Of a stretch of 64,000 bases of DNA, positions 387-63,500 are shown piece by piece; position 1 is the stretch's first letter; each line of letters begins with the position of its first letter. The notes under the pieces are model-generated. The model did no database searches. It was given only the letters and a program-made list of their open reading frames with translations, and had not been told where the DNA came from. A program made the translations under genes and the position numbers. The stretch comes from Malacoraja senta (lineage: Eukaryota): assembly GCA_038087875.1 (NCBI GenBank), contig CM075995.1, positions 10,356,001 to 10,420,000 on the forward strand, given 5' to 3'.

Positions 387-547
387 TTGTGGAATCGTTG
401 ATTCGGTTTTCGGGACGACATTGACCTTCAATTGCGGTGGATTTGTCGGTCGATATGTGAACATCATTATCCCAGGCCCGGATAAAACATTAACCCTGTG
501 CGAAGTTGAAATATTTGGTTCAGAACTCCCGTACTTACATGGAAAAG
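387..547 (+). CDS. FTLD exon B0 (C-terminal part of a domain whose A exon is upstream)
   Basis: tttcag|TTGTGGAATC...GGAAAAG|gtagg; [53 protein letters not shown]. Confidence 0.9.
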
Positions 548-3500
548 GTAGGCTGAGCTTCCCGCCGAGCCTCTGGTTGTACACTGCCGCACAGCTTAGT
601 TGAAAGTTTCTCGCACTGATGATGTCTGAGGATACCTTCCTTATTGAAGCGCAGTACCGTCTCTCCCAACCCTCTGCTCTTTGGCTTTCGTAGTTTACTC
701 GTCAGATTTGGACCCTCGCTGTGTCCGAAAATGAAATTCCTGAGTCACTCGATGTATACGCCGTCATCCATTTCGTCTGCAGACCTTATGCTGATAAACA
801 CCATCCTGGCATCAAAAAATCACACACCGATTGAAGCACGCGTGGAGAGTATCTCCCCGTTACATGACTACAGAACGGCCCTCCCTTGAGTTGTAGTGCA
901 ATCTCGATATTTTAACCTGCCTCAGCGCGGTTCTCAGACTAAAGTTCTCCAGCCCTATTACCACAACACCATACACCATATTATGCAATCTATTGCTTTA
1001 TTTCTACTTTACCAGTTGCTCTTGTGTGCGGCTCATTGCACTGATGTACAGAACGTACAGTACAAAGAAGTGTTTGCACTGCATCTCGCTTCCCTTGGCC
1101 ACACAAAAGCAAGACGAATATGAATGAAATATACTGATAACCCAACCCCTGATAGAAGAAATACCTCCATCGGTATCAGTAAAGTGTTTCCCACCTAACA
1201 GAAAACGTGGCGTTGGGAGCAAGTCCGACCCAGTCCAGCACGGATGAAGGGGCAGGTGCTGAGCGAGCCAATGATGGGAACATCGACAGCGACTTCAGGC
1301 ATGGTTCATGCGCACGCACCAGGAAATCCAAGGACCCCTGGTGGAGAGTAGATCTAAAGGAAAGCTACAACGTGTCAGATGTAAGAATCACCAACAGAGC
1401 AGACTGCTGCTCGGACCAGCTCCAAGGAGCAGAGATCCGCATCGGGGACTCGCTGGAGTACGATGGCAATTCCAACAGACTGTAAGTATTCATAAGCAAT
1501 CGCCGAATCTATTCACTGACGGCGTCGTCTTCTACAAATCCCACTGTTACTGGAGCAATGATAACATGAGTGGGTAAAAAAGAGAGATGCTGCAGGTTAC
1601 GAATTGTTTCATTGCAGACAAAATTGAAATTGTGCTCCTCTGCTCCAGATGCGGTACACAATGACACAGAGCCGTAGTTTACTTATGCAATGGCACGAGC
1701 TGCTTTCGTATCGCTTTTACGGTGGGGGTTAATAAAACAAGGTGCATAAGTCTATAATCCACGTTATGTAATTTGAACAATCGGATTGCATTGGCAATGT
1801 TCAAGTAATCATTGCCTATTGTATGAGTGAGAGATCATGCAGTCGCAATCCAGTCAATGTTACGTACTGCGGATCCTGGTTTAAACCGAAGATAGCCACA
1901 AAAATCCGGAATAACTCCGCGGGTCAGACACCTTTGCTGGAGAAAATAAATAGTTCACGTTTCTGCTCGCGACCTTCCTTCAAATTGTAGGAAGAAGGGT
2001 CACGACCCGAAACGTCACATATTCCTTTTCCGCAGAGATGCTGTCGGAGCCGCAAGGCTGCCTACGTATCCGGATCGTCTTCTGTTCCATCTGTTCGGAA
2101 CACGAGCAAGTGGATACGATGCAGGAGGTAACGTGGGACCCCCACATATCCCCGGGAACTGTCACCAGTTCACCCGCACATGACTGCGATAACCTTTAGC
2201 AGGCTTCCTGATCCGCATGATCGACAGATTGCGTCTCACCTTTAAATGCTCATTATTTCAGCTGTGGAATCGTTGATTTAGTTTCGGAGACGACATTCAT
2301 CTTCAATTGTGGAGGATATGTCGGTCGATATGTAAACATCATCATCCCAGGCCCGGATAAAATTTTGACCCTGTGCGAGGTTGAGATTTTTGGTTCAGAA
2401 CTCCTGCACTTTCATGGAAAAGGTAGGTTGAAGTTCCCACTGGGACTCTGGTGATACACTGCTCCACAGCGTATTGAGCGATTCTCTTGCTGATGAAGTC
2501 TGTGTATAATTACCTTACTGAAACCCCCTACCGTCTCTGACAACGATCTGCTATTTGACATTGTTAGTTTACTAGCCAGTCTTAGACCTTCGCCTTTTCC
2601 GAACATGAGACTGTCTGAAGGGGAGATGCCAGAGAGTAATGGTGGATGGTTGTTTGTCAGGTTGGAGGCCAGTGACTAGTGGGGTGCCACAGGGACCTGT
2701 GTTGGGTCCACTGTTGTTTGTCATGTACATCAATGATCTGGATGATGGTGTGGTAAATTGGATTAGTCAGTATGCAGATGATACTAAGATAGGTGGGGCT
2801 GTGGATAATGAAATAGATTTTCAAAGTCTACGGAGAGATTTATGCCGGTTGGAAGAGTGGGCTGAAAGATGGCAGATGGAGTTTAATGCTGATAAGTATG
2901 AGGTGCTACATCTTGGCAGGACAAATCAAAATAGGACGTACATGGTAAATGGTAGGGAATTGAAGAATGCAGGCGAACAGAGGGATCTTGCAATAACTGT
3001 GCACAGTTCCCTGAAAGTGGAATCTCATGTAGATAGGGTGGTAAAGAAAGCTTTTGGTGTGCTGGCTTTTATAAATCAGAGCATTGAGTATAGAAGTTGG
3101 GATGTAATGTTAAAATTGTACAAGGCATTGGTGAGGCCAATTCTGGAGTATGGTGTACAATTTTGGTCGCCTAATTATAGGAAGGATGTCAACAAAATAG
3201 AGAGAGTACAGAGGAGATTTACTAGAATGTTGCCTGGGTTTCAGCAACTAAGTTACAGAGAAAGGTTGAACAAGTTAGGGCTTTATTCTTTGGAGCGCAG
3301 AAGATTAAGGGGGGACTTGATAGAGGTCTTTAAAATGATGAGAGGGATAGACAGAGTTGACGTGGATAAGCTTTTCCCACTGAGAGTAGGGAAGATTCAA
3401 ACAAGGGGACATGACTTGAGAATTAAGGGACAGAAGTTTAGGGGTAACATGAGGGGGAACTTCTTTACTCAGAGAGTGGTGGCTGTGTGGAATGAGCTTC

Positions 3501-6500
3501 CAGTGAAGGTGGTGGAGGCAGGTTCGTTTTTATAATTTAAAAATAAATTGGATAGTTATATGCACGGGAAAGGAATGGAGGGTTATGGTCTGAGCGCAGG
3601 TATATGGGGCTAGGGGAGAATACGTGTTCGGCACGGACTAGAAGGGTCGAGATGGCCTGTTTCCGTGCTGTAATTGTTATATGGTTATATGGTTATATGG
3701 TCTGTTTTATAAAAACTGTGACTCTCGGTGCACACACCGTCCTCCATTTCGTCCGGAGACCTTATGCTGATAAACCGTACCCCGTTCCTGCCTTTTCCCC
3801 AAATCCCCTGACTCCGCTATCATTAAGAACCTTATCTAGTTCTCATTTGAAAGTATCCAGAAAACACCGCCCTCTGAGGCAGAGAGTTCCCCAGACCCAC
3901 AACTCTCTGTGAGGAAAAAGTGTTCCCTCGTCTCCGTTCTGAATGGCTTCCCCCTTTTCTTAAACTATGGCTCCTGGTACTGGACTCGCCCAACATCGGG
4001 AACATCTTTCCTGCCTCTAGCGTGTCCAAACCCTTAAAAATCTTCAATAAGATATCCTCTCATCCTTTAAAACTCCAGAGTATACAAGCCCAGCCGATCC
4101 ATTCTCTCAGCATATCACAGTCCCGCCATCCCGGGAATTAACCTTGTAAACTTACGTTGCACTCTCTCAATAGCATGGATGTCCTTCCTCAAATTAGGGG
4201 ACCAAAACTGCACACAATACTCCAGGTGTGGTCTAACTAGGGCCCCATACAACTACAGAAGGACCTCTTTGCTCCTATACTCAACTCCTCTTATTATAAA
4301 GGCCAGCATGCCATTCGCTTTCTTCACTGCCTGCTATTTCTGCGGTGCTTACTTTCATTGACTGGTGAACGAGGACCCCCAGATCCTATTGTACGTCCCC
4401 TTTTCCCAACTTGATACCATTTAGATGGTAATCTGCCTTCTTGTTTTTGCTACCAAAGTGCTTAACCTCACATGTATCCACATTATGCTGCATCAGCCAT
4501 GCATCTGCTCAGTGAACCAACCTGTTCAAGTCACCTTGTATTCTCATAGCCTCCCCCTCACAGTTCACACTGCCACCCAACCTTGTGTCATCTGCAAATT
4601 TGCTAATGTTACTTTGAATCCCTTCATCTAGATCATTGATGTATATTGTAAATAGCCGCGGTTCGACCACCGAGGCTTGCGGCGCCCCACTAGTCACTGC
4701 CTGCCATTCTGACTGAGACCCGAAAATCCCTACTCTTTGTTTCCTGTCTGCCAACCAAATTTATATCCATGTCAGCACTCTACCCCCAAGACCATGTGCC
4801 CTAATTTTGCCCACTAATCTCCTATGTGGGACTTTATCAAATGCTTTCTGAAAGTCCTGGGACACTACATCCACCGGCTCACCCATATCCATGTTCCCAG
4901 TTACATCCTCAAAAAAATCCAGAAGATTAGTCAAGCATAATTGCCCCTTAGTAAAGCTGTAGTGCAATCGCGATATTTTAACCTGCCTCAGCGCGGTATT
5001 TGGACATTTTCTATAGGTCTGTAGACATAATGCTATAACACCATATTATGCAATCTGTTGTTATAATTCCATTATACCTGTTGCTATTGCGTGTGGCTCC
5101 ATTGCACTGATGTACTGTATGATTTGATTGTATATTACTAAGCATAGTTTTTGATGTACCTCGCTTCACTTCACCATACAAAAGCAGTACGAATATCAAT
5201 GCTATACACTGCTGATCCAAACCTTGATAGGAGACCTACATTCGTCGGCATAAAATAGAAATGTAGAAAATAGGCGAAGGAATAGGCCATTCCCCCATTC
5301 AAGCCAGCACCACCATTCAATATGATCATGGCTGATCATCCAAAATGAGTATCCCTTTCATGCTTTCTCCTATATCCATTGAATCCGTTATCCCTGAGAG
5401 CTATATCTAACTCTCTCTTAAATACATCTTGCCTGTCGGCTCAGTGATACGTTTTCATCCCCACAGAAAACGTGGCGTTGGGAGCAACGCCGACCCAGTC
5501 CAGCACGTATCAAGGGGCAGCTGCTGAGCGAGCCAATGACGGGAACAGCGACAGCGACTTCAGGCATGGTTCATGCGCGCGCACCAGGAAATCCAAGAAC
5601 CCTTGGTGGAGAGTCGATCTAAAGGAAAGCTACAACGTGTCAGATGTAAGAATCACCAACAGAGCAGACTGCTGTTCGGACCAGCTCCAAGGAGCCGAGA
5701 TCCGCATCGGGGACTCGCTGGAGTACAATGGCAATTTCAACAGATTGTAAGTATTCATACGAAATTGCCAAATCTATTCATCTGCGATGTCTTCAACTAT
5801 AAATGACACTGTTGCTGAAGCATTGATAACATAAGTGGGTAAAAAAGAGAGATTCTGCAGGTTACGAATAGTTTCACTGCAGATAAAATTAAAATACTGC
5901 GCCTCTGCTGCAGATGCGGAAGACAATGACACAGAGGCAACGTTCACTTCGCCAATGGCACGAGCTGCTGCCGTGTCGCTTTAACAATGGGGGTTAATAA
6001 AATATGCTGCATAAATCGGCAGTTGAATTTAATACAGGTTAGGTAATATTGGACAATCGGATTGCAGTGGCAATGTTCAAGTAACCAATGCCTACTGTAT
6101 AAGTGAGAGAGATTGCAGTCTCTATCCAATCAATGCTACCTCCGTGTCGTAAGCAACTGCAGATCCTGGTTTAAACCGAAGATAGACAAAAAATCTGGAG
6201 TAATTCTGCGGGTCAGACAGCATTGCTGGAGAAACGAAATAAGTGATATTCTTTCAGATTGTTTTGAATCTCACGACCAATTGAAGGCTCACGACCCGAA
6301 ACGTCACATATTACATTTCCCCAGAGATGCTGTCGGAGCCGCAAGGCTACCAACGTATCCGGATCGCCTGCTGCTCCAAGGCATCTGTTCGGAACAAGTG
6401 GATAAGATGCCGGTGGCAACGTGGGAGTCCCACATATCCCCGGGACCAGTCACCAGTTCACCCGCATAGGACTGCGATAATTTTAGCACGCTTCCTGATT

Positions 6501-9500
6501 CGCATGATCGACAAATTGGCGTCTCACCTTTAAATCCTCATTATTTCAGGTGTGGAATCGTTGATACGGTTTCTGGGACGACATTAACCTTCAATTGTGG
6601 TGGATCTGTCGGTCGATATGTGAACATCATCATCCCAGGCACGGAAAATGTTTTGACCCTGTGCGAGGTTGAGATATTTGGTTCAGAACTCCCATACTTA
6701 CATGGAAAAGGTAGGCTGAAGTTCCCGCCGAGGCTCTGGTGGTTCACTGCCCCACAGCTTAGTTGAGCGATTCTGCTGCTGGTGAATATGTTACTTACTG
6801 AAACCCCGTACCGTCTCTGACAACGATCTGCTATTTGCCATTGTTAGGTTACTCGCCTGTCTTGGACCTTCGCCTTGACTGAACATGAGCCTGTCTGTTA
6901 ACGAAAACCCTGTGACACTCGGTGCACACGCCGTCATCCATTTCATCCGGAGACCTTATACTGAGCCAGGCACCAACAAAATACACACCTATTAAAACAC
7001 GCTTGAAGCGTATCTCCCCGTTACCAGACCACTGCATGATCCTCCTTTGACTTGTAGTGCAATGGCGATATTCTAACCTGCGTCAGCGCGGTACTTGGAC
7101 TTATTTTCTATAGGTCTGCAGATGTAATACTATAACACCACATAATACAATCTGTTGTTTTAATTCTACTTTACCTGTTGCACTTGCGTGTGGCTCCATT
7201 GCACTGATGTACAGTATGATTTGATTGTATATTACTAAGTAGAATTTTCGATGCATCTCACTTCACTTCACCACACGAATGCAGTACGAATATCAATGAA
7301 ATACACTGCTGATCCAAACCTTGAGAGCAGGCCTACATTCGTCGGTATTAAATAAAACGTTGAAAATAAGTGCAGAAGCAGACCATCCCGCCCTTCGAGC
7401 CAGCACCGCTATTCAAGGTGATCATGGCGGATCATCCCCAAAAAACGTTTTTTTCTGGAGGATTTCAAGAAAGATTTAAATAGACCTCTTAATTATAGCG
7501 GAGTCAAGGGATACGGTGAGAAGGCAGGAACTTGGTACTGATTGTGGATGATCAGCCATGATCACATTGAATGGCGGTGCTGGCTCGAAGGGCCAAATGG
7601 CCTACTTCTGCACATATTGTCTATTATACATTGTATTTCTACCCCATTCCTCCTTTCTCTCCATATCCCTTGAAGCCGTTATCCCTCAGAGCTATATCTA
7701 AAAATACATCTTGCCGTTCGGATCAGCTAGTCGTTTCCGTCCCCACAGAAAACGTGGCGTTGGGAGCAAGGCCAACCCAGTCCAGCACGAAGGAAGGGGC
7801 AGCTGCTGCACGAGCCAATGATGGTAACAGCGACAGCGACTTCAGGCATGGTTCATGCGCGCGCACCATGAAATCCAAGAACCCTTGGTGGAGAGTCGAT
7901 CTAAAGGAAAGCTACAACGTGTCAGATGTAAGAATCACCAACAGAGCAGACTGCTGCTCGGACCAGCTCCAAGGTGCCGAGATTCGCATCGGAGATTCGC
8001 TGGAGTACGATGGCAATTTCAACAGACTGTAAGTATTCAAAAGCGATCGCCGAATCTATTCACCTGCGATGTCTTCTGCAAATTCCACTGTTACTGGAGC
8101 AATGATCACCTGAGTGGGTACAAAAGAGTGATGATGCAGGTTACGAATAGTTTCACTGCAAATAAAATTAAAATGCGACCCGCTGCTCCAGATGCAGAAG
8201 AGCCGTAGTCCACTTATCCAATGGCACGAGCTTCTGCCGTATCGCTTTAGCGATGAGGGTTAATAAAAGGAGGTGCATAAATCTGTGATTGAAGTTAATT
8301 CAAGTTATGTAATATTGAACAATCGGATTGTAGTGGCAATGTTCAAGTAACCAATGCCGATGAGTGAGATATCATGCAGTCTCTATCCAGTCAATGCTAC
8401 CGACGCAGTGGAAGCACCTGCGGATCCTGGTTTATACAGAAGATATACACAAAAAATTGGAGTTCTTCTGCGGGTCAGACACCATTGCCGGATAATCGAA
8501 ATAGGTGATGTTTCGGGACGAGACCTTCCTTCAGATTGTATTGAGACTGAATAAGGGTCACGACCCGAAACGTCACATATTCCTTTTCCACAGAGGGTCG
8601 GTTTCGGAAGGGTACGTGCGTATCCGGAATGTCTTCTGCTCTAAGCCATCTGTTCGGAATACGAGCAAGTGGGTACAATGCCGGAGATAACGTGGGAGCC
8701 ACACACATTCCCGGGACCTGTTACCAGTTCACCCGCACAGGCCTGTGATAACCTTTAGCACGCTTCCTGATCCGCCTCATCGACAGATTGGCGTCTCATC
8801 TTTAATTCCTCATTATTTCAGCTGTGGAATCGTTGATTCAGTTTTTGGGACGTCATTCATCTTCAATTGTGGAGGGTCTGTCGGTCGATATGTGAACATC
8901 GTCATCCCAGGCCCGGATAAAATGTTGACCCTATGCGAGGTTGAGATATTTGGTTCAGAACTCCCGTACTTACATGGAAAAGGTAGGCTTAGTTTTCAGC
9001 TGAGGCTCTGGTGGTTCACTGCCCCACACCTTAGTTGAGCGATTCCCCTGGAATTGACGTCGTGATACAACTATATTTGGGAAACCTCGTACCGTCTCTG
9101 CCAACGATCTGCTAGTTGCCATTCTTAATTTAGTCGCCAGTCTTGGACCTTCACCTTGTCCGAACATGAGCCTATCTGTTAATGAAAACCCTGTGACACT
9201 CTATAGGTCTGTAGATATAATAATATAACACCATATTATGCAAACTATTCGTTTAATTCCACTTTACCTGTTGCTCCTGCGTGTGACTCCCTTGCACTGA
9301 GGTGCAGTACGATTTGATTGTATATTACTAAGTAGAATTTTCGATGCATCTCACTTCACTTCACCACACGAATGCAGTACGAATATCAATGAAATACACT
9401 GCTGATCCAAACCTTGAGAGCAGGCCTACATTCGTCGGTATTAAATAAAACGTTGAAAATAAGTGCAAAAGTAGACCATCCCGCACTTCGAGCCAGCACC

Positions 9501-12500
9501 GCTATTCAATGTGATCATGGCGGATCATCCCCAAAAAACGTTTTTCTGGAGGATTTCAAGAAAGATTTAAATAGAGCTCTTAATTATAGCGGAGTCAAGG
9601 GATATGGTGAGAAGGCAGGAACTTGGTACTGATTGTGGATGATCAGCCATGATCACATTGAATGGCGGTGCTGGCTCGAAGGGCCAAAATGGCCTACTTC
9701 TGCACCTATTGTCTATTATACATTGTATTTCTACCCCATTCCTCCTTTCTCTCCATATCCCTTGAAGCCTTTATCCCTCAGAGCTATATCTAAAAATACA
9801 TCTTGCCGTTCGGATCAGCTAGTTGTTTCCGTCCCCACAGAAAACGTGGCGTTGGGAGCAAGGCCAACCCAGTCCAGCACGAAGGAAGGGGCAGCTGCTG
9901 CACGAGCCAATGATGGTAACAGCGACAGCGACTTCAGGCATGGTTCATGCGCGCGCACCATGAAATCCAAGAACCCTTGGTGGAGAGTCGATCTAAAGGA
10001 AAGCTACAACGTGTCAGATGTAAGAATCACCAACAGAGCAGACTGCTGCTCGGACCAGCTCCAAGGTGCCGAGATTCGCATCGGGGATTCGCTGGAGTAC
10101 GATGGCAATTTCAACAGACTGTAAGTATTCAAAAGCGATCGCCGAATCTATTCACCTGCGATGTCTTCTGCAAATTCCACTGTTACTGGAGCAATGATCA
10201 CCTGAGTGGGTACAAAAGAGTGATGATGCAGGCTACGAATAGTTTCACTGCAAATAAAATTAAAATGCGACCCGCTGCTCCAGATGCAGAAGAACCGTAG
10301 TCCACTTATCCAATGGCACGAGCTTCTGCCGTATCGCTTTAGCGATGGGGGTTAATAAAAGGAGGTGCATAAATCTGTGATTGAAGTTAATTCAAGTTAT
10401 GTAATATTGAACAATCGGATTGTAGTGGCAATGTTCAAGTAACCAATGCCGATGAGTGAGATATCATGCAGTCTCTATCCAGTCAATGCTACCGACGCAG
10501 TGGAAGCACCTGCGGATCCTGGTTTATACAGAAGATATACACAAAAAATTGGAGTTCTTCTGCGGGTCAGACACCATTGCCGGATAATCGAAATAGGTGA
10601 TGTTTCGGGACGAGACCTTCCTTCAGATTGTATTGAGACTGAATAAGGGTCACGACCCGAAACGTCACATATTCCTTTTCCACAGAGGGTCGGTTTCGGA
10701 AGGGTACGTGCGTATCCGGAATGTCTTCTGCTCTAAGCCATCTGTTCGGAATACGAGCAAGTGGGTACAATGCCGGAGATAACGTGGGAGCCACACACAT
10801 TCCCGGGACCTGTTACCAGTTCACCCGCACAGGCCTGTGATAACCTTTAGCACGCTTCCTGATCCGCCTCATCGACAGATTGGCGTCTCATCTTTAATTC
10901 ATTATTTCAGCTGTGGAATCGTTGATTCAGTTTTTGGGACGTCATTCCTCTTCAATTGTGGAGGGTCTGTCGGTCGATATGTGAACATCGTCATCCCAGG
11001 CCCGGATAAAATGTTGACCCTATGCGAGGTTGAGATATTTGGTTCAGAACTCCCGTACTTACATGGAAAAGGTAGGCTTAGTTTTCAGCTGAGGCTCTGG
11101 TGGTTCACTGCCCCACACCTTAGTTGAGCGATTCCCCTGCAATTAACGTCGTGATACAACTATATTTGGGAAACCTCGTACCGTCTCTGCCAACGATCTG
11201 CTAGTTACCATTCTTAATTTAGTCGCCAGTCTTGGACCTTCACCTTGTCCAAACATGAGCCTATCTGTTAATGAAAACCCTGTGACACTCTATAGGTCTG
11301 TAGATATAATAATATAACACCATATTATGCAAACTATTCGTTTAATTCCACTTTACCTGTTGCTCCTGCGTGTGACTCCCTTGCACTGAGGTGCAGTACG
11401 ATTTGATTGTATATTACTAAGTAGAATTTTCGATGCATCTCACTTCACTTCACCACACGAATGCAGTACGAATATCAATGAAATACACTGCTGATCCAAA
11501 CCTTGAGAGAAGGCCTACATTCGTCGGTATTAAATAAAACGTTGAAAATAAGTGCAGAAGTAGACCATCCCGCCCTTCGAGCCAGCACCGCTATTCAATG
11601 TGATCATGGCGGATCATCCCCAAAAAACGTTTTTCTGGAGGATTTCAAGAAAGATTTAAATAGAGCTCTTAATTATAGCGGAGTCAAGGGATATGGTGAG
11701 AAGGCAGGAACTTGGTACTGATTGTGGATGATCAGCCATGATCACATTCAATGGCGGCGCTGGCTCGAAGGGCCAAATGGCCTACTTCTGCACCTATTGT
11801 CTATTATACATTGTATTTCTACCCCATTCCTCCTTTCTCTCCATATCCCTTGAAGCCGTTATCCCTCAGAGCTATATCTAAAAATACATCTTGCCGTTCG
11901 GATCTGCTAGTTGTTTGCGTCCCCACAGAAAACGTGGCGTTGGGAGCAAGGCCAACCCAGTCCAGCACGAAGCAAGGGGCAGCTGCTGCACGAGCCAATG
12001 ATGGTAACAGCGACAGCGACTTCAGGCATGGTTCATGCGCGCGCACCATGAAATCCAAGAACCCTTGGTGGAGAGTCGATCTAAAGGAAAGCTACAACGT
12101 GTCAGATGTAAGAATCACCAACAGAGCAGACTGCTGCTCGGACCAGCTCCAAGGTGCCGAGATTCGCATCGGGGATTCGCTGGAGTACGATGGCAATTTC
12201 AACAGACTGTAAGTATTCAAAAGCGATCGCCGAATCTATTCACCTGCGATGTCTTCTGCAAATTCCACTGTTACTGGAGCAATGATCACCTGAGTGGGTA
12301 CAAAAGAGTGATGATGCAGGTTACGAATAGTTTCACTGCAAATAAAATTAAAATGCGACCCGCTGCTCCAGATGCAGAAGAGCCGTAGTCCACTTATCCA
12401 ATGGTACGAGCTTCTGCCGTATCGCTTTAGCGATGGGGGTTAATAAAAGGAGGTGCATAAATCTGTGATTAATTCAAGTTATGTAATATTGAACAATCGG

Positions 12501-51500: not shown

Positions 51501-54500
51501 TATTTTCTTTAGGTCTGTAGATATAATACTACAACACCACATAATACAATCTGTTGTTTAATTCTACTTTACCTGTTGCTCTTGCGTGTGGCTTGATTGC
51601 ACTGATGTACAGTATGATTTGATTGTATATTACTAAGTAGAATTTTCGATGCATCTCACTTCACTTCACCACACGAATGCAGTACGAATATCAATGAAAG
51701 ACACTGCTCATCCAAACGATAGAAGGCCAACATTCGTCGGTATTGAATAGAAAAGTAGAAAATAAGTGCAGAAGTAGGCCAGCACCGCTATTCAACGCGA
51801 TCATCGCGGATCATCCAAAAAAAGGTTTTCTGGAGTATTTCAAGAAAGATTTAAATAGAGCTCTTAAATATAGCGGAGTCAAGGGATATGGTGAGAAGGC
51901 AGGAACTTGGTACTGATTGTGGATGATCAGCCATGATCACATTGAAAGGCGGTGCTGGCTCGAAGGGCCAAATGGCCTAATTCCGCACCTATTGTCTATT
52001 ATAAATTGTTATTCTACCCCATTCCTCCTTTCTCCCCATATCCCTTGAAACCGTTATCCCTGAGAGCTATATCTAACTCTTTCTTAAATACATCTTACCG
52101 TTCGGATCAGCGAGTCGTTTCCGTCCCCACAGAAAACGTGGCGTTGGGAGCAAGGCCAACCCAGTCCAGCACGAAGGAAGGGGCAGCTGCTGCACGAGCC
52201 AATGATGGTAACAGCGACAGCGACTTCAGGCATGGTTCATGCGCGCGCACCATGAAATCCAAGAATCCTTGGTGGAGAGTCCATCTAAAGGAAAGCTACA
52301 ACGTGTCAGATGTAAGAATCACCAACAGAGCAGACTGTTGCTCGGACCAGCTCCAAGGTGCCGAGATTCGCATCGGGGATTCGCTGGAGTACGATGGCAA
52401 TTTCAACAGACTGTAAGTATTCATAAGCGATCGCCGAATCTATTCACCTGCGATGTCTTCCGCAAATTCTACTGTTACTGGAGCAATGATCACATGAGTG
52501 GGTACAAAAGAGTGATGATGCAGGTTACGAATGGTTTCACTGCAGATAAAATTTAAATGCGATCCGCTGCTCCAGATGCAGAAGAGCCGTAGTCCACTTA
52601 TCCAATGGCCCGAGCTTCTGCCGTATCGCTTTAGCGATGGGGGTTAATAAAAGGAGGTGTATAAATGCGTTAATTCAAGTTATGTAATATTGAACAATCG
52701 GATTGTAGTGGCAACGTTCAAGTAACCAATGCCGATGAGTGAGATATCATGCAGTCTCTATCCAATCAATGCTACCGACGCAGTGGAAGCACCTGCGGAT
52801 CCTGGTTTATACAGAAGATATACATACAAATTTGGAGTTATTCTGCGGGTCAGACACCATTGCTGGATAATCGAAATAGGTGATGTTTCGGGACGAGACC
52901 TTCCTTTAGATTGTATTCAGACTGAATAAGGGTCACGACCCGAAACGTCACATATTCCTTTTCCACGGAGGGTCGGTTTCAAGATTCAAGATATTTTATT
53001 AGTCACATTCACATACACCCGGGTGTAGTGAAGTGAAATGTTTTTTGCCATTATGCAGCACACTAAAAAGAGAATATGAGAATACAGACACAACACCAAG
53101 ATAGTCTTAACACTGAACATCCCCCCACAATGGCTCCCACCATGAGGGATGGCACAAAGTCCAGTCCCCAACCCCAGTTCACCCATAGTCGGGCCCATTG
53201 AGGCCCCCACAGTTGTCTCTACGGAGGCCCGATGTTCCAGGCCGTTCTCGCCGGGTGATGTTGCTCCGGCGTCGGGAGAGTCCTCCCAGCGGCCTGGGAA
53301 CCCTGGAACGGCCGCTTCCGCACTGGGGGCCGCGGCTTCCGAAGCCAACAAGGCCGCGCCGGTTGGAGCTCCACAACTGGCGCTCTCATCTAGAGATCCC
53401 AGGCTCCCGGTGTAAAGTTCAGCGCCGCCGCCCGCAGCTGGTCGCTCCACAGTCCCGCAGCACCGCGATGTTTTCATCAGCGATCCTCAGCTCACCGGAG
53501 CTCCAGCGCGGCGACCCGGGCAAGGCATCGCCCGCTCCGCGATAGCGCTCCAGCGCTGTGCCGCCGACGAAGCCGAGGTTCTGGGCGGTCCCCGACAGGA
53601 AACTGCGCTCCAGGCCCGCTGGTAGGCCGCGAGGACGGGTCGAAGCTGCAGCCCGGAGAAAAGCTGCCTCTCCGGCCAGGTAGGGACCCTGAAAGGTAGT
53701 TTCCCCCTCCCCCCCCCCAACACAAAAAAGTCTAGACCTCCAAAACAAAACACGTTACTGACTAAAATAAAAAATAAAGGTGAAAGGATAGACAGCTGCT
53801 GGCTGGGCAGCCGCACACAAGTCAGCGCCCCCTGGGTTTCGCAAGGGTACGTGCGTATCCGGAATGTCTTCTGCTCCAAGCCATCTGTTCGGAATACGAG
53901 CAAGTGGATACAATGCCGGAGATAACGTGGGAGCCACACATATCCCCGGGACCTGTTATCAGTTCATCCGCACAAGCCTGTGATAACCTTTAGCACGCTT
54001 CCTGATCCGCCTCATCGACAGATTGGCGTCTCATCTTTAATTCATAATTTCAGCTGTGGAATCGTTGATTCAGTTTCTGGGACGTCATTCACCTTCAATT
54101 GTGGAGGATCTGTCGGTCGATATGTCAACATCGTCATCCCAGGCCCGGATAAAATGTTGACCCTATGCGAGGTTGAGATATTTGGTTCAGAACTCCCGTA
54201 CTTATATGGAAAAGGTAGGCTGAGCTTTCAGCTGAGGCTCTGGTGGTTCACTGCCCCACACCTTAGTTGAGCGATTCCCCTGCAATTGACGTCGTGATAC
54301 AACTATATTTGGGAAACCCCGTACCGTCTCTGCCAACGATCTGCTAGTTGCCATTGTTAGTTTAGTCGCCCGTCTTGGACCTTCGCCTTGTCCGAACATG
54401 AGCCTGTCTGTTAATGAAAACCTTGTGACACTCTATAGGTCTGTAGATATAATAATATAACACCATATTATGCAAACTATTCGTTTAATTCCACTTTAGC

Positions 54501-57500
54501 TGTTGCACTTGCGTGTGACACCCTTGCACTGAGGTGCTGTACGATTTGATTGTATATTACTTAGAAGAGTTTCCCATGCATCTCACATCACTTCACCGCA
54601 CGAAAGCAGTACGAATATCAATAGTATACACTGCTGATCCAAACCTTGATAGAAGGCCGATATTAGTCGGAATTAAGTAGAAACGTAGAAACTAGCCACA
54701 GGAGTAGGTCATTGCGCCCTTCCAGCCTGCACCGCCATTCAACATGATCATGGCTGAACATCCAAATGAGTACAGTTAAAGAAGGAACTGCAGATGCTGG
54801 AAAATCGAAGGTACACAAAAATGCTGGAGAAACTCAGCGGGTGCAGCAGCATCTATGGAGCGAAGGAAACAGGCAACGTTTCGGGCCGAAACCCTTCTGC
54901 AGACTGATAGGGGGTGGGGAGCCACCGAAACGTTGCCTGTTTACTTCGCTCCATAGATGCTGCTGCACCCGCTGAGTTTCTCCAGCATTTTTGTGTACAT
55001 CCAAATGAGTACCACGTTCCTGCTTTCTCCCCATATCCATCTAATCCGTTACCCTGAGACCTATATCTAACTCTCTCTTAAATACATTTTGCCTGTCGGC
55101 TCAGTGAGACGTTTCCATCCCCACAGAAAACGTGGCGTTGGGAGCAACTCCGATCCAGTCCAGCACGGATGAAGCGGCAGCTGCTGAGCGAGCCAATGAC
55201 GGGGATAGCGACGGCGACTTCAGGCATGGTTCATGCGCGCGCACCAGGAAATCCAAGAACCCTTGGTGGAGAGTCGATCTAAAGGAAAGCTACAACGTGT
55301 CTGATGTAAGAATCACCAACAGAGCAGACTGCTGCTCGGACCAGCTCCAAGGAGCCGAAATCCGCATCGGGGACTCGCTGGAGTTCAATGGCAATTTCAA
55401 CAGACTGTAAGTATTCAAAAGCAATCGCCGCATATATTCACCTGCGATGTCTTCTTCTACAAATTCCACTGTTACTGGAGCAATGATAATATGAGTAGGT
55501 AAAAAAGAGGGGTGCTGCGAGTTACGTATAGTTTGACTGCAGATAAAATTAAAATTGTGCTCCTCTGCTCCAGTTGAGGAACACAATGACACAACGCCGT
55601 AGTCTACTTATCCAATGGCACGGGGCGCTGCCGTATCGCTTTAGCGATGGGGGGTAATAAAAGGAGGTGCATAAATCTGTAATTGAAGTTAATTCATGTA
55701 ATATTGTGCAATCGGATTGCAGTGGCAATGTTCAAGTAATGTGTGAGCGAGAGATCATGCAGTCTCTATCCAGTCAATGTGTCGGAAAGGAATTGGAGAT
55801 TCTGGTTTAAGCCGAAGATGGACACAAAAATCTGGAATGATTCCGCGGGTCAAACACCATTGCTGGAAAAACGAAATAGGTGACGTTTCGTGTCGAGACA
55901 ATCCTTCAGATTTTATTGAGCCATAGAAAATAGTTGCATGAGGAGGCCATTCTTCCATTCGAGCCAGCACCGCCATTGATTGTGATCATGGCTGATCGTC
56001 CCCAATCAATAACCCGTGTCTGCCTTCTCCCCATATCCCTTGATTCCATCAGCCCCTAGAGCTCTATCTAACTCTCTCTTAAATCCTTCCAGTGATTTGG
56101 CCTGCACTGCCCTCTGTGGCAGGGAATTCCACAAATTCACAACTTTCTGGGTGAAAACGTTTTTTCTCACCTCAGTCCTAAATGGCCTCCCCTTTATTCT
56201 AGGATTCAGACCCTGGTTCTGGACTCGCCCAAAATTGGGAACATTTTTCCTGCATTTAGCCTGTCCAGTCCTTTTATGATTTTATATGTTTTTATAAGAT
56301 GCCCCCTCATCCTTCTGAACTCCAGTGAATACAAGACTAGTCTCTTCAATCTTTCCTCATATGACAGTCCCGCCATCCCAGGGATCAAACTCGTGAACCT
56401 ACGCTGCACTGCCATAATCACAAGGACGTCCTTCCACAATACTCCAGATGTGGTCTTAACAGAGCCCCCTACAACTGCAGAGGAACCGCTCTACTCCTCT
56501 CCTGAAATCCTCTTGTTATGAAGGCCAACATTTCAATAGGTTTCTTCACTGCCTGCTGTACCTGCATGTCAACTTTCAGTGACCGGTGTACAAGGACACA
56601 CACGTCTCGCTGTACCTCCCCCTTTCTTAACGAAACCCATTTAGATACTAATCTCCCCCCCTTGTTTTTGCCACCAAAGTGGATAACTTAACATTTATCT
56701 ATATTATACTGCATCTGCCACGCATCTGCCCACTCACTCAACCTGTCCAGTTCACCCTGCAACCTACTAACATCCTCTTCACAGTTCACACTGCCACCAG
56801 CTTTGTGTCAACCGCAAACTTGCTAATGTTGCTCCTAATTCCCTCTTCCAAATCATTAATATTTAAGTTAAACAGTTGCGGCCCAAACACCGAGCCTTGC
56901 GGCACTCCACTCGCCAGTGCCTGCCATTACGAAAACGTCCCTTTCACTCCTACACTTTGCTTCCTGTCTGCCAACCAATTTTCTATCCATGTCAACCCTA
57001 CCTCCAATACTATGTGCTCTAATTTCAGTCAACAGTCTCCCCCTTTGCGGGACCTTATCAAAGGCTTTCTGAAAGTCTAGATACACTATATCCACTGGCA
57101 CCCCTTCATCCATTTTACTTGTCACATCCTCCAAAAATTCCAGAAGATCAGTCAAGCACGATGTTCCTATCATAAATCCATGCTGACTTGGACTAGTCTT
57201 TTTACTGCTATCCAAATGCCCCATTATTATTTCTTTAATAATTGACTCCAGCATCTTTCCCACCAGCGAGGTCAGGCTAACTGGACTGTAATTCCTCGTT
57301 TTCTCTCTCGCTCCTTTCTTGAAAAGTGCGATAACATTAGCTATCCTCCATTCCACAGGAACTGATCCTGAATCTATTGAACATTGGAAAATGATCACCA
57401 ATACTTCCAATATATCTAGAGCCACCTACCTGAGGATTATGCGTTGCAGACCATCAGGGTCAGGGGATTTATCATCCTTCAGTCCCATTACCGTACCAAA

Positions 57501-60500
57501 TACTATTTCTCGCCTTATGAAAATTTATTTCAGTTCCTCTGTCCCCTTAGATCATCTGTCGTCCAGTACTTCTGGGAGATTGTTTGTGTCTTCCTCAGTG
57601 AAGACAGATCCGAAGTACCTGTTCAATTCTTCTACCATTTCCTTGTTCCCCATAATAACTTCACCCATGTATGCCTTCAAGGGACCCAGATTTGACTTTG
57701 CTATTCTTCTTCCCTTAACATTACTAAAGACGCTTTTACTGTCCTTCTTTATATTCCCGGTCAGCTTCCACTCGTACTTAATCTTTTCAGGCCGTTTTGC
57801 CCGTTTTGTTTCCTTCTGTTGTCCGATGTAAGTTTCCCAATCCTCTGGCTCTTGGCTACTCGTTGCCGCGTTATACATCTTTTCTTTTAGTTTTATTCTA
57901 TCCCTAACTTCTATTGTCAGCCACAGTTGCCTCCTACTCCCCTTAGAATCTGTCTTCCTTTTTGGAATGAAATGAACCCGCGTCTTCAGGATTATGCCCA
58001 GAAATCCCTGCCATTGTTGTTCCCCCGTCATTCCTGCTAGGATCCCTTTCCAGTCTACCTTGGCCAGCTCATGCCTTCATAGTCCCCTTTGTTCTACTGC
58101 ATCACGGACACCTCCGATTTATCCTTCTCCGTCTCAAATTGCAGAATAAAACTAATCATATTCTGATCACGACCTCCAAGCGGTTCCTTTACCTCGAGTT
58201 CACTTATCAAATTGAATTCATTGAACAACACTAAATCCAGAATTGCCTTATCTCTGGGCAATTCAACTGCAAGCTGCTTTAAGAATTCATCTCGGAGGCA
58301 CTCAACGAAATCTATATCTTGGGGTCCTGAACCAACCTGATTTTCCCAGTCTACATGCATATTGATATCACCCATCACCACAGTGGCATTATCTTTGTTG
58401 CATGCCAGTTTTAACTCCGGCTGCAACTTACACCCTACATCCGGGCTACTATTTGAAGGTCTGTAGATAACACCAATTAGTGTCTTCTTGCCTTTACAAT
58501 TCCTCAACTCAATCCACTGTGACTCAACCTCGTCAGTCCCTTTGTCTTCCCTCGCAAGGGACTCACCAACAGAGCTGCCCCCCCCCTCTCTGCCCACATG
58601 CCTATCCTTTCTATAGGATGTATAACCCTGAATATTAAGTTCCCAGGCCCGATCCTGCTGCAGCCACGTCTCGGTAATCTCCACAATGTCATATCTACCA
58701 ACCTCTAACTGAGCCTCAAGCTCATCTACTTTACTTCTTATACTTCGCACATTCAAATACAATACTTTAAATTACTATTGCATCTCAACTTTCACATCGA
58801 TCCCTATTAAACTTGGCCATGCTCTCCTATCACTTTGTGAGCTTTCGTTCCCGTTAATTCTGGCGTCATTAACTATCCCTTTACTCCCTTTCCCTTTAAC
58901 TCCATCCTTGACTATCCCATTTGACGTCCCCCCCCTTATTTAGTTTAAAACTACCTGTGTCACAGTGGCAAACTTGCCTGCCAGTATGCCGGTCCCCCAC
59001 CTGTTAAGGTGGAATCCGTCCCTTTTGTACAGTTCGCATTTACTCCAAAACAGATCCCAGTGGTCTAAGAAGGGTCACGACCCGAAGCGTCATATATCCA
59101 TTTTCTCCATAGATGCTATCGGAACCGCAAGGCTACCAACGTATCCGGGTCGCCTCCAGTTCCAAGCCATCTGTTCGTACAACGAGCAAGTGGATACGAT
59201 GCGGAGTTAACGTGGGAGCCCCACATATCCCCGGGACCATTCACCAGTTCACCCGCACAGGCCTGCGATAACGTTTAGCACGCTTCCTGATCCGAAGGAT
59301 CGACAGATTGGGGTCTCACATTTAAATCTTCATAATTTCAGCTGTGGAATCGTTGATTCAGTTTCCGGGACGAGATTCACCTTCAATTGCGGTGGAATTG
59401 TCGGTCGATATGTGAACATCATCATCCCAGGCCCGGATAAAATGTTGACCCTGTGCGAGGTTGAGATATTTGGTTCAGAACTCCCGTACTTACATGGAAA
59501 AGGTAGGCTGAACTTCCCGCTAAGGCTCTCGTGGTACACTGCCCCACAGCTTAGTGAGCGATTCACCTGCTGATGAAGTCGTAGTATATCGAACTTACTG
59601 AGTCCCTGCACCGTCTCTGCTAACAAACTGTTATTTGCCATTGTTAGTTTACTCGCCAGTCTTGGACATTCGCCTTGAACGGACATCAGTCTGTCTGTTA
59701 TTGGAAACCCTGTGAGTCTCGGTGCACATCCCTCCTCCATATCCCCTTATACTGATAAACACTAGCCCGGCAACAACAAAACACTTTCCCCGCTACTGCA
59801 CGATCCTCGCTTGACTTGTACAATCGTGATATTTTAACCACCCTCAGCGCAGAAATCTGACTTATTTTCAATAGTCTGTAGATATAATACTATAACACTA
59901 TATTATGCAATCTGTTATTTTAATTCTACTTTACCTGTTGCTCTTACGTGTGGCTCCATTGCACTGATGTACAGTATGGTTTGATTGTATATTACTAACA
60001 ATGGTTTTTGATGCATCTCGCTTCACCACACCAAAGTAGTACGAATATCAATGAAATGCACTGCTAATCCATACCTTGAGAGAAAGCCTACATTCGTCAG
60101 TATTAACTAGAAACGTAGAAAATAGGTGCAGGAGTTAAAATGTGGATTGTCGAAATGTCGGAGACCCTACATCTAGAAAGAATAAGACTTGTCTTAATGG
60201 ACAAACAATAACTTTTTGTTAAAATATGGGCCCCATTCATTGCCTATTTGAAGGGATAGATTGGCCCAGCACGAAAACCCAACTGAAGCTTGAACTCAGG
60301 ATTAGATGTAAAATTATATTTCATAACCTACGAACTTATATCCAATGACGTATTATAAGTAATTCATTCCACCTCTTTTTTTGATATTTGTAATTCTTTT
60401 TTCTTTATATCTCTCTTTTTCTATCTATATTAAAAAGAAAACACTAGAAGCAGAATTAATCGACAATTAACAATTTTAATAATGTATGATTGATGTATAT

Positions 60501-63500
60501 GAAAAGTTTTTTTCTATTATAATATGTTACTATACTTTATAATATGTTTGTTTCTAATAAAAACATTGTAAAAAAAAAATAGGTGCAGGAGTAGGTCATT
60601 CCACCCTAGGATCTAGCCGTCATTCAATATGATTATGGCTGATCATCCAAAATAAGTACCTCGTTGCTGCTTTCGCCCCATATCCCTTGAATCCGTTATC
60701 CATGAGAGCTATATCTAACTCTCTCTTAGCTACTTCTTCCCTTTCGGCTCAGTGAAACGTTTCCATCCCCACAGAAAATTTGGCGTTGGGAGCAAGTCCG
60801 ACCCAGTCCAGCACGGATGAAGGGGCGGCTGCAGAGCGAGCCAATGACGGTAACAGCGACAGCGACTTCAGGCATGGTTCATGCGCGCGCACTAGGAAAT
60901 CCAAGAACCCTTGGTGGAGAGTCGATCTAAAGGAAAGCTACAACGTGTCAGATGTAAGAATCACCAACAGAGCAGACTGCTGCTCGGACCAGCTCCAAGG
61001 AGCCGAGATCCGCATCGGGGACTCGCTGCAGATGGATGGCAATTTCAACAGACTGTAAGTATTCATAAGCGATCGCCGAATCTATTCACCTACGGTGACT
61101 TCTTCTACAAATTCCACTGTTACTGGAGCAATGATAACGTGAGAGGGTAAAAAAGAGAGATGCTGCAGGTTACAAATGGTTTCACTGCAGATCAAATTAA
61201 AATTGTGCTCATCTGCTCCAGATGCGGTAGACAATGATACAGAGCAGTAGTCCACCTATCCAATTGCACGAGCAGCTGCCTATCACTTTAGCGATAGAGA
61301 TTAATAAAAGGAGGTGAATAAATCTGTAATTGAAGTAAATTCAAGTAATGTAATATTGAACAATAGGATTGCAGTGGCAATGTTCAAGTAACCAATGCCT
61401 ATGAATGAGAGATCATGCAGTATATATCGAGTCAATGCTACCTACGTGTCAGAAGGAATTGCAGATACTGTTTTAGAAAATATACACCAAAATATGGAGT
61501 AACTCCGCGGGTCAGACACCATCGCTGGACAAGAGGAATAGGTGACGTTTCGGTTCGATTTCATCCTGCAGATTGTATTCAGTCTGAAGAAGGATCTTGA
61601 CTTGAAACGTCACATATTCCTATGCCCCGGAGATGCCTCCGCTCATAGCCATCTGTTCGGAACACGAGCAAGTGGATAAGATGCCGGAGGTAACGGGGAG
61701 CCCCGCATATCCCCGGGACCTGTCACCAGTTCACCCGCACACGACTGCGATAAGTTATCGCACGCTTCCTGATGTGCATGATCAACAGAGTGGAGTCTAA
61801 CATTTATATCCTCATAATTTCAGCTGCGGAATCGTTGATTCAGATTCTGGGACGTCATTCACCTTCTATTGTGGAGGATCTGTCGGTCGATTTGTGAACA
61901 TCATCATCCCAGGCACGGATAAGATTTTGACCCTGTGCGAGGTTGAGATATTTGGTTCAGAACTCCCGTATTTACATGGAAAAGGTAGGCTGAAGTTCCC
62001 GTTCAGGCTCTGGTGGTTCACTGCCCCACAGCTTAGTTGAGCGATTCCCCTGCTGATGAAGTCGTAATAAATCTAACTTACTCAAACCCCGTACGGTCTC
62101 TGACAACGATCCGCTATTTGACATTGTTTGTTACATCACCAGTCTTGGATCTTCGCCTTGACCGAACATGAACCTGTCTGTAAATGAAACCCCAGTGATT
62201 CTGGGTGCACACCCCGTCCTCCATTTCATCCGGAGAACTTATGTTGATAAACACTAGCCAGGCACCAACAAAATACACACTTATTGTAACACGCTTGAAG
62301 CGTATCTCTCTGTTACCAGACTAATACACGACCCTCCCTTGACTTGTAGTGCAATGGCGATATCTTAACCTGCCTCATTCCGGTACTTGGGCTTATTTTC
62401 TATCGATCTGTAGATATAATACTTTAACACCATATTATGCAATCTGTTGTTTTAATTCTACTTTACCCGTTGCTCTTGCGTGTGGCTCCAATGCACTGGT
62501 GTACATTATGATTTGATTGTATATTACTAAGTTGAATTTTCGATGCCTCTCGCCTCACTTCACCACACGAAATCAGAACGAATCTCAATCAAATATACTG
62601 CTGATCCAAACCTTGATAGAAGGCCTACATTCGTCGGAATTAAATAGAAACGTAGAAAATAGGTGCAGGAGTAGGCCATTCCGTCCTTCGAGCCAGCACC
62701 ACTATTCAATGTGATTATGTCTGATCATCCAAAATGAGTACCCCTTTCCTGCTTTCTCCCTAAATCCCTTGAATCCGTTATCCCCGAGAGTTATATTTAA
62801 CTCTCTCTTAAATGCATCTTGCCTTTCGCCACAGTGAGACATTTCCATCCCCACAGAAAACTTGGCATTGGGAGCAAGTCCGACCCAGTCCAGCACGGAT
62901 GAAGGGGCAGTTGCTGAGCGAGCTAAGGACGGGAACAGCGACAGCGACTTCAGGCATGGTTCATGCGCGCGCACCAGGAAATCCAAGAACCCTTGGTGGA
63001 GAGTCGATCTAAGGGAAAGCTACAACGTTTCAGATGTAAGAATCACCAACAGAGCAGACTGCTGCTCGGATCAGCTCCAAGGAGCCGAGATCCGCATCGG
63101 GGACTCGCTGGAAAATGATGGCAATTTCAACAGACTGTAAGTATTCATAAGCAATCGCCGATTCTATTCACCTGCGGTGTCTTCTTCTACAAATTCCACT
63201 GTTACTGGAGCAATGATAACGCGAGAGGGTTAAAAAGAGAGATGCTGCAGGTTACAAATGGTTTCACTGCAGATACAATTAAAATTGTGCTCATATGCTC
63301 CAGATGCTGAAGACACTGATACAGGGCAGTAGTCCACCTATCCAATTGCACGAGCAGCTACCCTATCACTTTAGCGATAGAGATTAATAAAAGGAGGTGA
63401 ATAAATATGTAATTGAAGTAAATTCAAATAATGTAATATTGAACATTAGGATTGCAGTGGCAATGTTCAATTAACCAATGCCTATGAATGAGAGATCATG

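What the first reader, a model, noticed from the sequence alone, without database searches (positions are those of the whole stretch)
1202..63136. Fucose-binding triad rewritten in every domain (H to R/S, second R to Q)
Known: the F-type fucose motif is H-X26-R-X-D-X4-R/K. Seen: the X26 spacing is exact here, but His is replaced by Arg in 13 domains (CART) and by Ser in A6, A11 and A12 (CAST/CSST). The final Arg is Gln in all 16 (RADCCSDQ). The vicinal CC and the Ca-site-like ANDG motif are kept (AKDG in A16). Inference: the fold is intact but the ligand has shifted, perhaps to anionic or sulfated glycans given the basic R-T-R/M-K-S-K loop, or to a non-glycan partner.
Basis: partly seen in the sequence, partly recalled or inferred. 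Interest (0 to 1): 0.75.

Follow-up and report, generated by a model that had tools for sequence, protein, structure and literature searches.

The report
Skate lectin array, fucose site rewired
This skate DNA holds 17 near-identical copies of a fucose-lectin domain, likely one giant protein, and all 16 readable binding sites lack two of the three fucose-gripping residues; the change likely arose once and was then copied, and the protein likely binds another, possibly sulfated, sugar.

Summary
Observation confirmed. The window is an array of alternating 280-nt and 161-nt exons that splice into an open 7,056-nt frame of 147-aa F-type lectin domains. Eel His52 is Arg in 13 copies and Ser in 3; Arg86 is Gln in all 16. 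The RHGS His is eel His47, not a ligand residue.

It is not 16 rewrites. The repeats are 85-99% identical and the same R-R-Q site occurs in three skate genera in one clade, so it is likely one ancestral change spread by duplication. The loop is under purifying selection (7 synonymous, 0 amino-acid changes). A skate orthologue's model matches eel agglutinin (TM 0.87).

The surprise is smaller than first rated. 259 of 584 non-chondrichthyan domains are also non-canonical, and zander and wallaby have 18-domain arrays with no canonical site; wallaby also has R-R-Q. What stands out is skates: 1 of 44 domains canonical, with a basic loop (+1.6 versus -0.8). An acidic-glycan ligand is plausible but untested (about 40%). 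New variant of a known kind; interest 0.35.

The parts
387..547 (+). exon B0: C-terminal third of a domain whose exon A lies upstream of the window
1202..1481 (+). exon A1 (R-R-Q; His-position codon at 1315)
2262..2422 (+). exon B1
5467..5746 (+). exon A2 (R-R-Q)
6550..6710 (+). exon B2
7749..8028 (+). exon A3 (R-R-Q, K-type: K15/M41)
8822..8982 (+). exon B3
9841..10120 (+). exon A4 (R-R-Q, K-type)
10911..11071 (+). exon B4
11929..12208 (+). exon A5 (R-R-Q, K-type)
12996..13156 (+). exon B5
13831..14110 (+). exon A6 (S-R-Q)
18117..18277 (+). exon B6
22444..22723 (+). exon A7 (R-R-Q, K-type)
23517..23677 (+). exon B7
24352..24631 (+). exon A8 (R-R-Q)
28316..28476 (+). exon B8
29529..29808 (+). 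exon A9 (R-R-Q, K-type)
30529..30689 (+). exon B9
31364..31643 (+). exon A10 (R-R-Q)
35641..35801 (+). exon B10
36320..36599 (+). exon A11 (S-R-Q)
46016..46176 (+). exon B11
46856..47135 (+). exon A12 (S-R-Q)
50933..51093 (+). exon B12
52133..52412 (+). exon A13 (R-R-Q, K-type)
54054..54214 (+). exon B13
55127..55406 (+). exon A14 (R-R-Q)
59342..59502 (+). exon B14
60775..61054 (+). exon A15 (R-R-Q)
61824..61984 (+). exon B15
62857..63136 (+). exon A16 (R-R-Q, AKDG)
63926..64000 (+). exon B16, cut by the window end
14111..18116 (.). one of six long A-to-B introns (after A6, A8, A10, A11, A12, A14) that share a LINE-derived insertion at about 85-94% identity; marks a duplicated sub-family of repeats

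Best explanation
This is likely one skate gene for a giant chain of at least 17 F-type lectin domains whose fucose site lacks His52 and Arg86, and which likely binds acidic (sulfated or sialylated) glycans weakly per domain but strongly in total. Shown: exon structure, open frame, the substitutions, purifying selection, and the same site in three other skate genera. Inferred history: His to Arg came first (R-R-R domains survive in skates), then Arg to Gln; each needs only one base change (CAC to CGC; CGG to CAG, assuming those ancestral codons). Duplication of the two-exon unit then spread the new site. Inferred mechanism: Arg79-Asp81, the vicinal Cys pair and Phe45 still shape a pocket; Arg at 52, Arg at 46 and the R/M-K-S-K loop add local positive charge suited to one sulfate or carboxylate. 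K-type and D-type repeats vary the rim, and the long chain would cross-link glycoconjugates such as mucins or microbial surfaces. Secretion is inferred from the sawshark relative's hydrophobic N-terminus; neither end of the gene is in the window.
For: 32 exons, all AG/GT, splice in frame with 0 stops over 7,056 nt. The Rhinoraja RefSeq model joins 9 such units. Omega is about 0.25 for exon A (p=1e-11) and 0.48 for exon B (p=0.002); loop R66-Q73 has 7 synonymous and 0 amino-acid changes (p=7e-6). CpG transitions are seen at 9 of 22 synonymous versus 2 of 30 non-synonymous sites (p=0.005). R-R-Q is in 18 of 44 database skate domains, and Arg sits at the His position in 30 of 44. Quick trees give a skate R-R-Q clade at SH-aLRT 95, with R-R-R skate domains outside it (support 80 inside 91). 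The loop after the His position has mean net charge +1.6 in skates versus -0.8 elsewhere, and Arg replaces Tyr46 in 24 of 45. Little-skate skin mucus: sulfate 41.7%, NeuAc 26.1%, and a Fuc-(SO3)Gal epitope the authors call undescribed (PMC10532229 section 2.2.3). F-type lectins that bind other sugars are known: bryohealin, ranaspumin-4.
Against: Summed loop charge is only -3 to +3 and domains are net acidic (K+R 14-16, D+E 18-23), which does not fit strong binding of a polyanion. Gln86 is not fixed in other skates (R, W, L, K, H, E, N also occur), so that position may simply have been released. Three copies have Ser rather than Arg at 52, so Arg52 is not needed in every copy. The loop 37-45 shows no significant constraint by itself (p=0.10). 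The loop 66-73 may be conserved for structure (salt bridge, disulfide). Skate domains are related, so the charge contrast is roughly one evolutionary event. Nothing links this gene to skin. Ranaspumin-4 switched to galactose while keeping His and both Arg (its sequence as printed), so the triad does not predict the ligand.
Confidence: 0.4

Rival explanations
1. Arginine swap: the site still binds fucose or galactose. The long Arg at position 52 supplies the guanidinium lost from position 86, Gln86 supplies a hydrogen bond, and avidity makes up for weaker binding.
For: Arg79, Asp81, Cys82-Cys83 and Phe45 are kept in all 16. Arg52 with a non-basic 86 recurs apart from skates: R-R-M in teleosts, R-R-Q in wallaby. 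Skate mucus is 91.5% fucosylated.
Against: The coupling of Arg52 with loss of Arg86 is significant at 90% clustering but not against other non-His domains at 70% (p=0.08) or 60% (p=1.0). The three Ser copies would have only one basic triad residue. Of the methyl pocket, Leu23 is D/K/Y, Tyr46 is Arg and His27 falls in a deletion.
Confidence: 0.25
2. Sugar binding is lost and the repeats act as a structural or protein-binding scaffold (a matrix, mucus or egg-case polymer), as proposed for Drosophila furrowed and the coagulation-factor C domains.
For: Two of three triad residues are gone; reviews read such loss as possible loss of sugar binding. The strongest constraint covers the core strands 46-82 (2 amino-acid versus 19 synonymous changes). 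Wholly non-canonical homogenised arrays recur in zander and Lineus.
Against: Exposed site residues (R33, T40, K42, S43, K44, S71, D72, Q73) are invariant in 16 copies, while variation falls in CDR1, the loop reviews name as the specificity loop. Other skate genera keep the same basic loop.
Confidence: 0.25
3. The site is a decayed relic that was copied passively, with no current role.
For: Both changes can be single transitions and CGG to CAG is a CpG decay. Position 86 is variable across skates.
Against: No stop or frameshift in 32 exons while introns are about 87% identical. Omega is 0.25-0.48.
Confidence: 0.07
4. The units are separate small genes, or an assembly artefact, rather than one long protein.
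For: RefSeq splits the Amblyraja and Leucoraja loci into several models. No transcript of this species was seen.
Against: Every exon B ends at a GT donor in phase with the next exon A. The B-to-A introns (mostly 517-1,271 nt) are homologous, and tblastn with 10 relatives found no other lectin-gene exon in them. Copies differ and carry distinct insertions, which a collapse or duplication artefact would not give.
Confidence: 0.05

Closest known systems
Eel agglutinin AAA (1K12) and striped bass MsaFBP32 (3CQO), F-type fucolectins
   Same: Fold (TM 0.87 and 0.92, 43-46% identity), Arg79-Asp81, vicinal Cys pair, Phe45, DG and Ser49 calcium residues; two exons per domain as in the bass gene.
   Different: His52 is Arg/Ser, Arg86 is Gln, Tyr46 is Arg; short CDR1; basic CDR3; at least 17 domains rather than 1 or 2.
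Uncharacterised skate models LOC144607515 (Rhinoraja, P0001), LOC116984017/116983989/116984036 (Amblyraja), Leucoraja 'fucolectin-1-like' (P0047, P0122)
   Same: 84-91% best identity to exon A1 for the models, same R-R-Q site, same repeat length; probable orthologous locus.
   Different: Annotated only automatically and in pieces of up to 9 scored domains; position 86 is more variable there.
Giant tandem F-type arrays in databases: sawshark (11), mackerel (20), tailed frog (29), zander (18), wallaby (18)
   Same: Long, mostly homogenised chains of the domain. Zander (V/I-R-R) and wallaby have 0 canonical sites; wallaby has 2 R-R-Q domains and lacks the last Arg in all 18.
   Different: Sawshark, frog and most mackerel domains keep H-R-R. 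Zander loses only the His. Wallaby repeats are 58% alike and form a separate clade, so its R-R-Q is convergent.
F-type lectins with other ligands or none: ranaspumin-4 (galactose), bryohealin (GlcNAc/GalNAc), some oyster bindins, Drosophila furrowed
   Same: F-type domain that departs from fucose binding or from the motif.
   Different: None is reported with R-R-Q or an acidic-glycan ligand in the passages read; ranaspumin-4 keeps the triad residues.

Membership tests
F-type lectin domain (fold-level, extended family) | F-type jellyroll fold | tested here: met
   AlphaFold2 model of a Rhinoraja R-R-Q repeat (stand-in for the spliced window domain), pLDDT 94.7; Foldseek top hits 3CQO TM 0.92, rmsd 1.3 and 1K12 TM 0.87, rmsd 1.6. 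Window exon A1 hits the same entries by sequence and Pfam PF22633/PF00754.
F-type lectin domain (fold-level, extended family) | Calcium motif h2DGx and Ser49 | tested here: inconclusive
   A-N-D-G-N/D (A-K-D-G in A16): Asp, Gly and the Ser49 equivalent are invariant, but the second hydrophobic position is Asn/Lys. LCEVE is invariant; that its Cys and Glu bind calcium is recalled, not from a call.
F-type lectin domain (fold-level, extended family) | Vicinal Cys82-Cys83 and Arg79-Asp81 pair | tested here: met
   Present in 16 of 16.
F-type lectin domain (fold-level, extended family) | Each domain encoded by two exons | tested here: met
   280 + 161 nt per domain; the review gives two exons per domain for the bass gene. 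Exact intron positions were not compared.
Canonical fucolectin (L-fucose-binding FTL) | His-X(24-26)-Arg-X-Asp-X4-Arg/Lys | tested here: not met
   0 of 16. The reviews print X24; eel numbering His52 to Arg79 gives 26.
Canonical fucolectin (L-fucose-binding FTL) | [quoted passage not shown] | tested here: not met
   Only Phe45 is kept; Leu23 is D/K/Y, Tyr46 is Arg, His27 is in a deletion. CDR1 register is less certain because of that gap.
Canonical fucolectin (L-fucose-binding FTL) | L-fucose-inhibitable binding | not testable with these tools
   Needs recombinant protein.
Pentraxin-fusion FTL (Xenopus PXN1 type) | Pentraxin domain after the FTL repeats | tested here: inconclusive
   None in the window or in the Pfam lists of the skate relatives; the gene's 3' end lies outside the window.

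The most novel reading that the evidence does not exclude
Skates have turned almost their whole F-type lectin locus (43 of 44 sampled domains non-canonical) into one giant secreted polymer, perhaps 25 or more domains if the split RefSeq models are one gene. Its R-R-Q site would read sulfated fucosyl-galactose or a related acidic glycan and cross-link mucus, making it the first F-type lectin specific for a sulfated glycan.
Probability: 0.15. Interest if true: 0.7.

Novelty: new variant of a known kind. Interest (0 to 1): 0.35.

Why it matters
It gives a clean natural test of what the fucose triad can be changed into. One lineage shows H-R-R, R-R-R, R-R-Q and S-R-Q states in closely related domains, and the derived site is held by selection. 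If it binds sulfated glycans it would be a new specificity for the family and a possible probe for sulfated mucin glycans. If it binds nothing, it shows lectin repeats reused as a scaffold. It is not a new kind of system: atypical motifs and giant arrays both recur in vertebrates.

Tried and rejected
No whole genome is held, so the gene's ends, signal exon and total domain number are unknown.

RNA search: no RNA holder listed; this says nothing about expression. The two listed runs (one study) laid on 6500-9050 cover the introns and show no joint at exon borders, so they behave as DNA. They show variant copies, for example 7869 T>G, the Met/Arg41 difference, but may be the assembly's own sample.

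RHGS His as a substitute ligand residue: rejected, it is eel His47. Sixteen independent rewrites: rejected. R-R-Q as unique to skates: it held in the first census (0 of 608 non-skate domains) but failed in the long-protein search (wallaby). An unusually long array: rejected, 18-29-domain arrays exist. Coupling of Arg52 with loss of Arg86: not robust to clustering. No reversion to His at the CpG codon: true in 16 copies but weak, since only 9 of 22 synonymous and 14 of 26 intronic CpG positions show the change. Positive selection on CDR1: not detected (12 amino-acid versus 8 synonymous changes). A role in ampullae-of-Lorenzini keratan sulfate gel: no supporting passage found; dropped. A CBM47 sulfated-fucan precedent: one review listed, not read.

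Khairnar 2019 and Mahajan 2018, the mutational studies, are not held. Earlier scan notes: nothing. The careful tree did not finish; both trees are quick SH-aLRT trees on 93 columns, and no one-clade test was run.
Full report
Observation. A six-frame scan finds the RADCC motif 16 times, all on the + strand. Each lies in a 280-nt exon (A) followed by a 161-nt exon (B). All 32 whole exons have AG/GT ends and splice into 7,056 nt with no stop, giving 147-aa repeats that are 85-99% identical (one search was a first attempt with the exon A start off by one base). The window opens with an orphan exon B and closes in a cut exon B at 63926, so 17 domains are touched. The alignment to eel agglutinin has no gaps from the DG motif to past the CC, so RHGS is eel YHGS (His47) and cannot stand in for His52 by register.

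What it is. Exon A1 matches F5/F8 type C families and solved F-type lectins. The closest database proteins are automatic models from the skates Rhinoraja (91%), Amblyraja and Leucoraja, so the window is from a skate. I modelled an unchanged Rhinoraja repeat with the same R-R-Q site as a stand-in for the spliced window domain, using a 74-row alignment. It gave pLDDT 94.7 and TM 0.92 to 3CQO and 0.87 to 1K12. One gene is inferred from splice phase, from homologous B-to-A introns in which tblastn found no other lectin-gene exon, and from the 9-domain Rhinoraja and 11-domain sawshark models. No transcript was seen.

One change, many copies. Introns are homologous (about 87% over 400 nt). Six units share a LINE-derived insertion, and six K-type exons form a tight clade. 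In a census of 238 proteins (the best 120 of 509 hits and the best 120 of 298), 704 domains were found and 52 with gaps at the motif were dropped. The canonical H-R-R/K triad was in 325 of 584 non-chondrichthyan, 12 of 18 shark, 2 of 6 ray and 1 of 44 skate domains. R-R-Q was in 18 of 44 skate domains and 0 of 608 others. Quick trees put the window repeats with R-R-Q domains of the three genera (SH-aLRT 95, on 51 chosen rows; 80), inside a weaker skate group that also holds R-R-R, S-R-R and Q-R-R domains. This suggests His was lost first and Arg86 second. The trees have only 93 columns and no bootstrap.

Selection. Parsimony counts on the repeat trees give omega of about 0.25 for exon A and 0.48 for exon B. 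The R66-Q73 loop has 7 synonymous and 0 amino-acid changes, and residues 46-82 have 19 and 2. CpG transitions appear at 9 of 22 synonymous and 2 of 30 non-synonymous positions. Gene conversion may distort these counts, but the protein is clearly not decaying. Variation falls in CDR1 (positions 15, 16, 21), at 41 and in CDR5, without a signal of positive selection. K-type repeats pair Lys15 with Met41, and the others pair Asp or Tyr15 with Arg41.

How unusual. Less than first rated. 44% of sampled non-chondrichthyan domains are non-canonical. Six of 72 non-skate proteins with four or more scorable domains have no canonical site, though none of the 72 lacks both residues in every domain; 2 of 105 with three or more do. 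Among 24 of the 47 long proteins that I examined, arrays of 18-29 domains occur in mackerel, tailed frog, zander and wallaby. Zander has 18 of 18 without His. Wallaby has 18 of 18 without the last Arg, 16 without either residue, and two R-R-Q domains in a separate clade. The reviews already note departures from the motif in furrowed and oyster bindins and other ligands for bryohealin and ranaspumin-4. From recall only (paper not held), Khairnar et al. 2019 reported that about a third of F-type domains are atypical and that His-to-Ser was tolerated in a bacterial domain. What remains distinctive is the near-total loss across the sampled skate repertoire and the maintained, homogenised double change.

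Mechanism. The scaffold of the site stays (Arg79, Asp81, Cys82-83, Phe45, calcium Asp and Ser), while two hydrogen-bond donors and most of the methyl pocket change, so ordinary fucose binding is likely weakened or lost. The loop after position 52 averages +1.6 in skates against -0.8 elsewhere, and little-skate mucus carries sulfated, sialylated and Fuc-(SO3)Gal glycans. I therefore favour low-affinity, high-avidity binding of an acidic glycan (0.40). Against this, the loops together are near neutral, the domains are net acidic, three copies have Ser at 52, Gln86 varies in other skates, and no tissue is known. Retained fucose or galactose binding by an arginine swap (0.25) and a non-glycan scaffold role (0.25) remain open.

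Literature seen. PMC12221842: passages and section 8. PMC5712786: passages and sections 7 and 8; it mentions a skate F-type sequence once, with no detail. PMC10532229: abstract and sections 2.2.3 and 3.3; supplements not opened, and they hold the glycan tables. PMC10707392, PMC10987296, PMC13594953 and PMC2674504: passages only; the first reports an F-type protein fragment in catshark skin mucus. Searches listed no paper on this skate array or an R-R-Q site; one search listed only 20 of 426 loose matches, and subscription papers are not covered.

Verdict. A real feature and a new variant of a known kind: an F-type-fold array that fails the canonical fucolectin motif, with an untested ligand. 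Interest 0.35.

Noticed in passing
window 19221-21767 (-) and 41385-44428: Long LINE copy with endonuclease and reverse transcriptase in one open 848-aa frame inside the B6-A7 intron; a 94% identical copy in the opposite orientation lies in the 9.4-kb intron after A11, near an ORF1-like GDSL-esterase frame (40655-41392).
   Followed up: partly
window introns after A6, A8, A10, A11, A12, A14: A shared ~3-kb LINE-derived insertion marks one sub-family of repeats; these often alternate with short-intron K-type units (A6/A7, A8/A9, A12/A13), suggesting a two-domain unit of duplication.
   Followed up: partly
window 7749-13830: A3-A5 are nearly identical at a ~2.09-kb period (introns 98-99% alike): the most recent expansion, and a likely site of copy-number variation.
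   Followed up: no
P0020, P0028, P0078, P0001, P0003, P0076 (skate RefSeq models): Domains pair up across genera in overlapping order (H-R-L, R-R-Q, Q-R-R, S/R-R-R, R-R-W ...), suggesting the split models are pieces of one giant gene with diverse front domains and a homogenised R-R-Q tail.
   Followed up: partly
P0239-P0242: Uncharacterised giant F-type arrays in mackerel (20 domains), tailed frog (29), zander (18, all without His) and wallaby (18, all without the last Arg); the reviews read describe mostly 1-5 domains.
   Followed up: partly
P0172, P0174, P0175, P0204, P0208: A single-domain shark 'fucolectin-like' clade has Ala at the His position in four genera.
   Followed up: no
domain position 57, all complete repeats: An invariant N-glycosylation sequon (N-V-S) in all 15 complete domains.
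   Followed up: no
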